Shown in pieces: positions 9,001-12,000 of a stretch of 51,026 nucleotides of DNA (within the stretch, counting starts at the first letter, position 1; the number at the start of each line of letters is the position of its first letter). The position numbers were made by a program. The stretch lies in IMG/VR virus record IMGVR_UViG_2671180890_000005, positions 1 through 51,026 of that record; one strand, 5' to 3'. This DNA is from a virus (taxonomy: Duplodnaviria; Heunggongvirae; Uroviricota; Caudoviricetes).

Positions 9001-12000
9001 CTTGTCGATCTTTAATATATTGCGCATGATTGTAAGTACCTCGAATAGAGTTCTTATCAACATGCGCAAGCTGCATTTCAATCCAGGCACTTTCAAACCC
9101 ATGCTCATGCAAGATGGTGCTCATGGTATGCCTGAAACCGTGACCCGTTAACCGACCGTGATAACCCAGTAGTTTTATCACTTTGTTGATGCTGGCTTCG
9201 CTCATTGGTTTACTGACGTCATTCCGGCCAGGGAAAACGAGGCTGTAATTCCCTGTTATTTCTTGCAGCTTTTTCAGGATATTGATCGCCTGAGTTGATA
9301 ACGGAACCAGATGGGGGCGGCGTTTCTTCATCCGTTCTTTGGGGATCTCCCATAAGGCATTATCTAAATCAAACTCAGCCCATTCCGCTGCACGTAGTTC
9401 AATTGTTCGCACGCCTGTTAGCATCAACAGCTGCGTGGCGTATTTGGTAACTAAACTGCCCTGATAGTTATCCAGAGCATTAACGAACTCGGGCAACTCG
9501 CTTTCAGTCAGGAACGGGAAGTGTTGGGTTTTAGGTTTGTTGAGTGCGATAGCTAAATCGGGTGCAAAATTATACTTTGCTCTACCAGTGGCAACAGCAT
9601 AACGAAGCACTTCACCACAGCGGCGGCGGATCTTACTGGTTTGCTCTAGCGCACCTCTTTTCTCTATTTTTTGCAGGACGGTTAGCAGTTCTAATGGTTC
9701 AATCTGCTCAATTGGGCGCTGGCCGATAAAAGGAAAAATATCCTTTTCCATACAATTGAGAACCTCTTTTGCATAACCCTCTGACCAGGTGGCTTTTTTC
9801 GATGAGTGCCATTCTCTGGCCACAGACTCAAAGCTGTTCTCATGCGCGAACTGCAAAGCAATCTTATCTGCTTTTCTGGCTTCACTTGGGTTTATCCCGT
9901 TGGCTAACATCGAACGCGCTTCATCACGTTTGGTACGTGCCTGTGCCAACGACACATCGCCATATACGCCAAAGGAAATCATCTTAGGCTTACCTGCAAA
10001 GCGATAGCGAAAACGCCAGCCTTTACTGCCCGCTGTGTCGATCAGGAGTGATAGCCCCATACCATCGTTAAGCGTATAGGGTTTGTCCTTCGGTTTTGCT
10101 CTTTTTATTTGGATGTCAGATAGCAGCATGTGTATAGAAAAAAGATCGAACTCAGTTATACACAATGTTATACGCAAAGATGTATAGATTCCATTAGAAA
10201 TAATGGTACTTTGCTGGACGAGTATAAGGAGATGATATCAGTTAAAACAGTGAGTTATGGAATTAATTGAACTTAGTGAGAAGTGTTCATGGTGTCCCCT
10301 GCAGACATCTACTTGAGGCGGCAGGGGATTGATTGGAATGGTGTTTTTTAGATGTGAGAAATATTTTACCCGCTATTTTACCCATTGGCGCGGCTTAAGA
10401 GCTTATTTTTGAATTCACAATGGTCACGATATAACCATCTTGCTCGCCCGTGGATAACTTTGGCTTTTGGCAGGTCGCCGGACTTAATCCGGTCATAGAT
10501 GAAGGTTTTACCGAAGCCAGTATCGGCCATGATGAATTTCAAATCAACCAGTGAATCAGGTTGTAGTTCGTGTTGCATGAGTGCTATCTCCGAATAGGGA
10601 ATCGAACCTGCAAATCAGGCAATAAAAAACCGCCATCAGGCGGCTTGGTGTTCTTTCAGTTCTTCAATTCGAATATTAGTTACGTCTGCATGTGCTATCT
10701 GCGCCCACAGCATCCAGTGGTCATAGCAGTCGTTGATGTTCTCTGCTTCGATAACTCTGTTGAATGGCTCTCCATTCCATTCACCTGTGACTCGGAAGTG
10801 CATTTATCATCTCCATAAAACAAAACCCGCCGTAGCGAGTTCAGATAAAAGAAATCCCCGCGAGTGCGAGGATTATCATTCATTGTCGATATTCACCTTT
10901 ATAGCGAACACCTTTACCGGTTTATCGCCGAAGTGCGGATGTGTGATTGTCTTGATTTCATATCCGTCATACGGGACGTCAATTCTGCGGCTGGAATCGT
11001 CGCGCTTCGGATATCCCTTTGTGATAATCAGGCGGTCATACTCGCGGAACATAATTCGCTTATTCCAGTAGTCATTACACAGGCGATACTCTTCCGTTTT
11101 CTCTCCGCGAATCATGGCATCGAAGTATTCACCTTTAACGGCAAGTTGCAGGTTAGCCACGACCTTCCTCCTTTGGCTTGTGAATTTGTATCGTCATGCC
11201 GCTTTGAGTGGTGACTACAACGACAGAACCAGGCTGAAGACTGTTAAGATTGAATGCTTCGTAAAACGAAGCCAAGGCCAGCGCTTTTTTATTCTTTCGG
11301 TTCCACCAACGCCATCCATTGCTACAGGCTACACTGACAATCCACTGTCCACTCCTGTAAGCCATATAAAACCAGATGAGCAAAACCTGAAGGAAGGCTA
11401 TCCAGTTAATAATCGTATATTTCGCGAAGTAGTCCATCACTTCACCTCCTGCGGCGGTTCTGGTAGCGGCATCCAGTGTGTTACATTGCTAATCAGACCA
11501 TATTCATTAGTTTGAGGATGCCCGCCGCGATCGTCTCCGTATTTAAAACTTTCCATAAAACCATAATGCTTATCCCCATTAACGCTCACAAAGCCGTAAT
11601 AAGCTGGTATAACGCCGATCTCACACGTAATCAACAAAGGAAAACTAGTTCTCCAATTTAGCTCACCAATTACAGGCATTCGATCACTACAGCTTATCCA
11701 ACTATCCGGAGTTCCCGGAGAGTTGCCATTTACATCGAAGTTTGGCTCTGCGTCCTGAACCAGGAGGATGTAACCATTCTTGGCTGTATCAAGTTCTAAC
11801 GCCTCGGTGACGGTGCCGAAATAGCGATTACCTAAATCAGCATCACAAGTGCTTACATCAATGGAAACTTCCATGCCCTCGATTAATTCTGGCAACTTGT
11901 AAGTTTGGCTTATAGGCTCTGCTTCCAGCGATGCCAGTGCAATTCGTGCCAGTTCCATTTGTTCTCCACGGGTAAGTCCGTTATCAAGCGGATTTTTAAT

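What the first reader, a model, noticed from the sequence alone, without database searches (positions are those of the whole stretch)
10290..10304. 15-nt tRNA 3'-end remnant between the two elements implies tandem integration at one tRNA site
CTGCAGGGGACACCA (minus strand) has the T-stem 3' strand, acceptor 3' strand and ACCA of a tRNA, and matches the 3' end of argW as I recall it. It lies between the TorI-like gene on the prophage side and the P4-type integrase on the satellite side. The simplest reading is that the satellite integrated first and the prophage later inserted into the reconstituted tRNA, leaving this core copy at the junction. The intact tRNA should then lie just right of 51026.
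Basis: partly seen in the sequence, partly recalled or inferred. Interest (0 to 1): 0.6.

Follow-up and report, generated by a model that had tools for sequence, protein, structure and literature searches.

The report
argW remnant joining prophage and satellite
The 15-base tRNA fragment is the shared attachment-site scar between a P22-like prophage and a P4-like satellite, both inserted one after the other into the E. coli argW tRNA gene; the reading is correct, but this is an ordinary, already described kind of junction.

Summary
CTGCAGGGGACACCA lies on the minus strand at 10290-10304 and occurs once in the window. It is the 3' end of tRNA-Arg(CCU), argW.

The window is 100% identical to E. 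coli G749 (NZ_CP014488.1). In that genome:
- The intact argW ends 162 bp right of position 51026, directly before intS.
- A third core copy lies about 0.68 kb left of position 1, next to dsdC.
- The three copies share 16 nt, CTGCAGGGGACACCAT, which is the published KplE1/CPS-53 core.

The layout is argW, a 40.9-kb prophage (intS to torI), core, an 11.0-kb satellite (int to alpA), core, dsdC.

The sequence alone cannot give the order of arrival, because both orders yield the same product. Comparative data favour satellite first:
- The satellite is 100% identical and sits directly at argW in hundreds of genomes.
- No other genome covers more than 81% of the tested 24.9-kb right part of the prophage, so the phage appears specific to G749.

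Both tandem orders occur among 5426 complete genomes (13 and 6). K-12 already annotates the same 15-nt remnant as the pseudogene pawZ. This is already known and of low interest.

The parts
10289..10304 (-). 16-nt att core CTGCAGGGGACACCAT: the argW 3' 15 nt plus 1 nt. It serves as attR of the prophage and, at the same time, attL of the satellite.
   Evidence: It is identical to the published KplE1 core (PMC2951348). The same 15 nt is annotated as pseudogene pawZ in K-12.
10305..10377 (-). Prophage-side arm of attR (P arm), with two GGGTAAAA repeats at 10364-10371 and 10376-10383. These are candidate IntS arm-type sites.
   Evidence: nearly identical to the K-12 KplE1 attR arm up to the core, with divergence immediately after CACCAT; the same octamer occurs three times between argW and intS at attL. 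Calling them arm-type sites is an inference.
10378..10578 (-). torI, the recombination directionality factor (excisionase) of the IntS/TorI module.
   Evidence: Annotated torI, WP_001163428.1. DNA alignment to K-12 torI.
49869..51026 (-). intS, the prophage integrase. The window ends at its start codon. argW lies 162 bp further right, outside the window.
10305..51026 (-). P22-like (Lederbergvirus-type) prophage, about 40.9 kb measured core to core, running from torI to intS.
   Evidence: mosaic similarity to vB_EcoP-611R6, Kapi1, CUS-3 and HK620, with gp10, portal and tailspike annotations.
8954..10129 (-). Satellite integrase, a P4-type tyrosine recombinase 45% identical to IntS.
10130..10288 (-). 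Satellite-side arm of the junction, with GTGTATAR repeats at 10130-10137 and 10156-10163. These are candidate satellite Int arm-type sites.
   Evidence: all four GTGTATAR copies in the 22-kb locus lie within about 170 bp of a satellite end. Their function is inferred.
1..10288 (+). P4-like satellite, about 11.0 kb core to core. Its last roughly 0.68 kb, with alpA and the third core, lies left of the window. It carries an alpha-type primase, an ogr/Delta gene, an Ash/Icd-like gene, C4 and isrK RNAs, a P2-family capsid homologue and sce7725/sce7726 cargo.

Best explanation
The 15-mer, properly a 16-mer at 10289-10304, is the middle one of three direct copies of the argW attachment core in a tandem array. 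The array reads: argW (intact), then the IntS/TorI P22-like prophage of 40.9 kb, then a core, then the P4-like satellite of 11.0 kb, then a core, then dsdC. Both elements encode related tyrosine integrases (45% identity) that recombine within the last 15 nt of tRNA-Arg(CCU) plus one base. Each integration regenerates the tRNA 3' end from element DNA and displaces the previous copy downstream. The middle copy is therefore a hybrid site. Its right side in the window is the prophage attR arm, with torI and GGGTAAAA repeats. Its left side is the satellite attL arm, with GTGTATAR repeats and int. The most likely history is that the satellite was resident at argW in this lineage, and the phage later integrated into the reconstituted tRNA between argW and the satellite integrase gene. 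What is shown: the three copies, the intact tRNA, the element boundaries, and the population distribution. What is inferred: the order of arrival, the arm-type sites, and whether the sites are still active.
For: The window is 100% identical to G749. An intact tRNA-Arg(CCT) lies 162 bp beyond 51026, next to intS. Exact core copies are present at argW, at the window site and next to dsdC, and 16 nt are invariant across the three. Similarity to the K-12 KplE1 attR stops exactly at the end of the core, and the core sequence equals the published one (PMC2951348). Junction counts among 5426 complete genomes are: empty site 911, satellite directly at argW 425, torI-core-dsdC 858, tandem as here 13, reverse tandem 6. 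The satellite is 100% identical over 10,289 bp in many genomes, including the ST131 strains JJ1886 and JJ1887, where it abuts argW. For the tested 24.9-kb right part of the prophage, the best match outside G749 covers 81% at 97.5% identity. Phage similarity next to the same satellite integrase ends at several different points in other tandem genomes, which suggests repeated independent phage insertions. In the reverse tandem that was examined, the tRNA-proximal element is the intact satellite and the distal one is a decayed KplE1-like remnant. This fits a rule that the newest element lies next to the tRNA.
Against: The final sequence is the same whichever element arrived first, so the order rests on parsimony without a whole-genome phylogeny. 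If G749 branched off before the satellite-only strains, a single phage excision in their ancestor would explain the data equally well. No activity (excision or circular forms) can be shown here. The arm-site motifs are only repeats clustered near the att sites.
Confidence: 0.85

Rival explanations
1. The tandem array is the same but the order is reversed. The P22-like phage integrated first at the empty argW site, and the satellite later inserted into the distal 16-nt core of the phage attR.
For: The product would be identical to what is seen (reasoned). The two integrases are related. The phage attR left flank, GATGT, partly resembles the tRNA GATTC. Phage-only occupancy of the site is common, at 858 genomes.
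Against: The satellite with identical flanks is fixed at 100% identity, directly at argW, in hundreds of genomes, while the tested part of this phage is matched closely only in G749. The distal remnant lacks the tRNA-derived left half-site. In the examined reverse tandem, the older, decayed element is the distal one.
Confidence: 0.12
2. The phage and satellite were acquired together as one block, for example by transduction or recombination of the whole argW-dsdC region from a donor that already carried the tandem array.
For: Thirteen genomes carry the same kind of junction, so donors exist.
Against: The satellite and both chromosomal flanks are 100% identical to satellite-only and empty-site genomes, including ST131 strains. 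The other tandem genomes carry different phage variants, 98-99% identical with different similarity breakpoints. No other genome matches the tested part of this prophage closely.
Confidence: 0.02
3. The 15-mer is a chance match with no relation to tRNA integration.
For: None.
Against: The number expected by chance is 0.07 even with 2 mismatches allowed. There are three exact copies, each at an element boundary. The sequence is identical to the experimentally defined KplE1 core.
Confidence: 0.01

Closest known systems
attR of the KplE1/CPS-53 cryptic prophage of E. coli K-12 (16-nt core; remnant annotated as pseudogene pawZ, b4643)
   Same: It has the same 16-nt core, CTGCAGGGGACACCAT. The torI gene and the arm upstream are nearly identical. 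The partner attL lies at intact argW followed by intS. The recombination module was characterised by Panis et al. (PMC2951348, PMC3509656).
   Different: In K-12 the remnant is followed by chromosomal DNA and dsdC. Here it is followed by the integrase end of a second element. The prophage here is a full-length 40.9-kb P22-like genome, not a 10.2-kb remnant.
Sf6, HK620, CUS-3 and Kapi1: P22-like phages that integrate at argW with the IntS/TorI module
   Same: The module order is the same (torI, attP core, intS) and the core is the same. Sf6 annotates it as the attP core. The prophage shows mosaic DNA similarity to these phages.
   Different: It is a different mosaic. The best phage record covers only 59% of the 24.7-kb query taken from the left part of the prophage. 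The CUS-3 record annotates a different 16-mer, the argW T-arm piece, as its att core and so omits torI.
Tandem arrays of integrative elements at one tRNA attB (tandem P4-like elements; tandem SGI1; accretion of ICEs and IMEs)
   Same: Several elements share one attB, are separated by direct repeats of the core, and have the intact target at one end. Tandem P4-like elements are reported in PMC8628076. Tandem integration of SGI1 is reported in PMC2297512.
   Different: Here the two partners are of different kinds: a podovirus prophage and a P2-dependent-type satellite. Each has its own integrase, so they are not two copies of one element.

Membership tests
KplE1/CPS-53-type (IntS/TorI) attR site | 16-nt core CTGCAGGGGACACCAT identical to the argW 3' end plus one base | tested here: met
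   The published core is quoted in PMC2951348.
KplE1/CPS-53-type (IntS/TorI) attR site | torI RDF gene and a conserved P arm immediately upstream of the core | tested here: met
   only a few substitutions relative to K-12 from upstream of torI to the core, then an abrupt loss of similarity; annotated torI.
KplE1/CPS-53-type (IntS/TorI) attR site | Partner attL formed by an intact argW followed by intS | tested here: met
   tRNA-Arg(CCT) at record 2455574-2455648, with intS starting at 2455810, which is window position 51026.
KplE1/CPS-53-type (IntS/TorI) attR site | IntS- and TorI-dependent excisive recombination between attL and attR | not testable with these tools
   This needs PCR for attP/attB junctions or an in vitro assay like that in PMC3509656.
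attL of a P4-type-integrase satellite at a tRNA | Tyrosine recombinase with the Arm-DNA-bind_3, Phage_int_M and Phage_integrase domains adjacent to the tRNA-derived core | tested here: met
   The start codon lies 160 bp from the core.
attL of a P4-type-integrase satellite at a tRNA | A direct repeat of the core at the other end of the element, and an empty site that equals the two flanks joined | tested here: met
   20-nt identity, ATTCCTGCAGGGGACACCAT; empty junction at 100% identity; the satellite alone at argW in 425 genomes.
P4-like satellite (family membership of the left element) | Core components int, psu, delta, sid, alpA, epsilon and alpha (PMC8628076) | tested here: inconclusive
   Found: int, an alpha-like primase (Zn ribbon, Toprim, DUF927), an ogr/Delta gene, alpA, and C4 and isrK RNAs. 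No psu or sid was recognised. A P2-family major capsid homologue is present instead. 'P4-like' is used here as a working label.
Tandem array at a tRNA attB | At least three co-oriented core copies, with the intact tRNA at one end and one complete element between each pair of copies | tested here: met
   Each element also occurs alone at the same site in other genomes.

The most novel reading that the evidence does not exclude
The P22-like phage and the satellite share the same 16-nt crossover core and have 45%-identical integrases, so their recombination systems may cross-react. On induction of the phage, which is not a P2-type helper, IntS and TorI might excise the satellite or the 52-kb composite using the outer cores. 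Alternatively, the hybrid middle site might impair clean phage excision, which would make the satellite an obstacle to a prophage that is not its helper. A related oddity may bear on this. A 16-nt argW T-arm piece sits 293 bp upstream of the core in every IntS/TorI module examined and abuts the core exactly in tRNA coordinates. It could be a fossil of an older tandem array that was fused by deletion.
Probability: 0.07. Interest if true: 0.5.

Novelty: already known. Interest (0 to 1): 0.15.

Why it matters
The finding gives a correct map of the locus. It defines the exact ends of two mobile elements, shows that both compete for argW, and shows that the site is highly polymorphic in E. coli: empty, phage only, satellite only, or either tandem order. 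That is useful for annotation and for designing excision assays. It adds no new principle, because core remnants between tandem elements at tRNA genes are textbook and this remnant already has a gene name in K-12.

Tried and rejected
- ARAGORN and Rfam on the window found no tRNA. This is uninformative for a 15-nt fragment.
- I tried to infer the order of integration from the three junction sequences and rejected the approach. Working through both orders shows that they give identical products. The identity blocks are 17 nt for the phage and 20 nt for the satellite, and they do not discriminate.
- The arm-site motifs GGGTAAAA and GTGTATAR cluster at the expected places, but window-wide counts are not significant on their own, so they are reported only as candidates.
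- Literature searches for a description of the ST131 argW satellite found nothing specific.
- The PADLOC scan of the sce7725/sce7726 cargo gave only one weak family hit.
- I considered whether the T-arm fragment upstream of torI marks a second att site, as the CUS-3 record annotates it. I rejected this as the functional core because Sf6 carries fragment, torI, core and intS contiguously in its genome, with the 16-mer CTGCAGGGGACACCAT annotated as attP.

Full report
**Observation**

Window 10290-10304 reads tggtgtcccctgcag on the + strand, which is CTGCAGGGGACACCA on the - strand. It occurs once in the window even with two mismatches allowed, where 0.07 matches are expected by chance. ARAGORN and Rfam find no tRNA in the window. 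Rfam finds only the C4 antisense RNA and isrK at 2063-2308, which are typical of P4-type immunity regions.

To the right of the 15-mer lies torI at 10378-10578(-). To the left lies a tyrosine integrase at 8954-10129(-) with the Arm-DNA-bind_3, Phage_int_M and Phage_integrase domains.

**Where the window comes from, and what lies outside it**

A 2-kb query across the junction matches E. coli G749 (NZ_CP014488.1) at 100%. A script confirmed that the window is the reverse complement of that record, with window position x at record position 2506836-x.

Right of the window:
- The record has yfdC, then tRNA-Arg at 2455574-2455648, then intS starting at 2455810, which is window position 51026.
- ARAGORN calls this tRNA as tRNA-Arg with anticodon CCT, that is argW, and its last 15 nt are the 15-mer.

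Left of the window:
- A third exact copy lies at record 2507511-2507525, about 0.68 kb beyond position 1.
- It sits between an AlpA-family gene (Pfam PF05930, E = 5e-20) and dsdC.

**Anatomy of the three copies**

Aligning the three copies with their flanks gives 16 invariant bases, CTGCAGGGGACACCAT. This is exactly the duplicated core reported for the KplE1/CPS-53 prophage of K-12 (PMC2951348).
- The satellite attP, reconstructed from its two ends, shares 20 nt with argW: ATTC plus the core.
- The phage attP shares 17 nt.
- Core-to-core distances are 40,898 bp for the prophage and 10,979 bp for the satellite, derived from the coordinates.

The K-12 attR region aligns to the window with only a few substitutions, from about 40 bp upstream of torI through the core. 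Similarity is lost immediately after CACCAT, where K-12 continues into host DNA and the window continues into the satellite. K-12 annotates the same 15-nt remnant as a pseudogene, pawZ.

On the phage side of the core there are two GGGTAAAA repeats, at 10364-10383. The same octamer occurs three times between argW and intS.

On the satellite side there are two GTGTATAR repeats, at 10130-10163, and two more sit just inside the other satellite end. I read both sets of repeats as candidate arm-type sites. That is an inference.

The two integrases are 45% identical over their full length. This fits their shared target.

**The two elements**

The right-hand element is a P22-like, Lederbergvirus-type prophage. 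It has portal, gp10, ejection-protein and tailspike annotations. It shows mosaic similarity to vB_EcoP-611R6, Kapi1, CUS-3 and HK620, phages known to use argW with the IntS/TorI module (PMC2951348, PMC3509656).

The left-hand element carries several satellite-type features:
- an alpha-type primase (Zn ribbon, Toprim and DUF927 domains);
- an ogr/Delta gene;
- an Ash/Icd-like gene;
- an alpA gene;
- C4 and isrK RNAs;
- a P2-family major capsid homologue;
- an sce7725/sce7726 gene pair next to int.

I call it P4-like as a working label. No psu or sid was recognised.

**Order of arrival**

Working through both histories shows that satellite-first and phage-first give exactly the same three junctions, so the sequence alone cannot decide. 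I therefore counted junction types in 5426 complete E. coli genomes. The queries were about 800 bp, real or chimeric, and a genome was counted when it covered at least 80% of the query.

| Junction type | Genomes |
|---|---|
| Empty argW site | 911 |
| Satellite int directly after argW | 425 |
| torI-core-dsdC (phage only) | 858 |
| Tandem as in this window | 13 |
| Reverse tandem (satellite end-core-intS) | 6 |

Further comparative results:
- The satellite is 100% identical over all 10,289 bp in many genomes, including ST131 strains such as JJ1886 and JJ1887. In those genomes it abuts argW, and the flanks are identical too.
- The 24.9-kb right part of the prophage has no close match outside G749. 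The next best genome covers 81% at 97.5% identity.
- In the other tandem genomes, similarity to the phage stops at several different distances from the core. That suggests independent insertions of different argW phages next to the same resident satellite.
- In one reverse tandem that I inspected, the order is argW, intact satellite, core, then a decayed KplE1-like remnant ending in torI, then dsdC. The older-looking element is again the distal one.

I put this at roughly 75-80%. The remaining doubt is that no whole-genome phylogeny was made. An ancestral tandem followed by one phage loss would fit if G749 were basal to the satellite-only strains.

**Mechanism**

Established knowledge of tyrosine integrases at tRNA genes (lambda-type attP x attB recombination; KplE1 work in PMC2951348 and PMC3509656) gives the following account.
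- Each element supplies its own copy of the tRNA 3' end.
- Each integration keeps argW intact and pushes the previous copy downstream.
- The middle copy is thus both the phage attR and the satellite attL.
- Phage excision (argW core x middle core, using IntS and TorI) would leave the satellite at argW.
- Satellite excision (middle core x distal core, using the satellite Int and probably AlpA) would leave torI-core-dsdC.

None of this activity can be tested with these tools.

**Comparison with what is known, and novelty**

The site meets every testable defining feature of a KplE1-type attR and of a tRNA tandem array. Tandem P4-like elements and tandem integration at a single attB are documented (PMC8628076; PMC2297512). 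The finding is correct but already known, so interest is low. The most novel reading still open is cross-reaction between the two related integrase systems at the shared core. I consider that unlikely.

**Noticed in passing**

A 16-nt piece of the argW T arm, TTGCAGGTTCGATTCC, lies at 10598-10613(-), just upstream of torI.
- In the tRNA this piece abuts the core with a 1-nt overlap (L001 4120-4135 against 4135-4149).
- It is conserved in K-12 KplE1 and Sf6, where it lies within an annotated putative promoter and mosaic 'boundary sequence'.
- It is what the CUS-3 GenBank record annotates as its attL and attR cores, so that record omits torI.
- Similarity to lambdoid phages stops a few bases before it.
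- Its origin is unexplained.

Noticed in passing
window 10598-10613 (-): TTGCAGGTTCGATTCC is a 16-nt exact copy of the argW T-arm 5' part, located 293 bp upstream of the att core and just before torI. In the tRNA it abuts the core with a 1-nt overlap, so the torI segment looks as if it were inserted into a 30-nt tRNA-derived block. It is conserved in K-12 KplE1 and Sf6. It overlaps Sf6's annotated 'pI' promoter and the bsq2 mosaic boundary. The CUS-3 record annotates it as the attL and attR core, so that record leaves out torI. Its origin is unexplained; it may be a fossil of an older tandem array or of a longer attP.
   Followed up: partly
window 884-1888 (+), with the ORF at 1-861 (+) upstream: The satellite encodes a full-length P2-family major head protein homologue (PF05125 E = 9.5e-67; phrog_70 E = 1.8e-86). 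It is preceded by a 286-aa ORF with no family hit. No psu or sid was recognised. A P4-type satellite with its own capsid gene is unusual relative to P4 itself.
   Followed up: no
window 7121-8974 (+): An sce7726/sce7725 family gene pair lies between the ogr/Delta gene and the satellite integrase. This is the position of the known defence hotspot of P4-like elements. There is only one weak PADLOC hit ('cll', E = 1e-18), and it is to the first protein.
   Followed up: partly
L002 about 13354-13388 (outside the window, satellite end near the third core): A (GGGCT)n pentanucleotide run lies near the satellite's distal end. The matched span of this region differs between genomes (831 bp here, up to about 960 bp elsewhere), so it seems to be a variable-number repeat.
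   Followed up: no
window 2063-2308 (+): Rfam finds isrK (68.9 bits) and the C4 antisense RNA (81.1 bits) side by side, inside or overlapping the Ash/Icd-like ORF at 1976-2566. This is the P4/P1-type RNA immunity region of the satellite.
   Followed up: no
L007 (E. coli 18SZHZ655Rt), whole locus: This locus has the reverse tandem order: argW, the same satellite, core, intS, a decayed KplE1-like remnant carrying AraC-family, diguanylate cyclase and IS4 genes, torI, then dsdC. Six genomes have this order against 13 with the order seen in the window.
   Followed up: partly
window 49450-49800 region and L001 5708-6001: An acyltransferase gene lies next to intS in the G749 record (WP_011478229.1). 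This is the usual position of O-antigen-modifying cargo in argW P22-like phages; compare Sf6 oac and K-12 yfdGHI.
   Followed up: no
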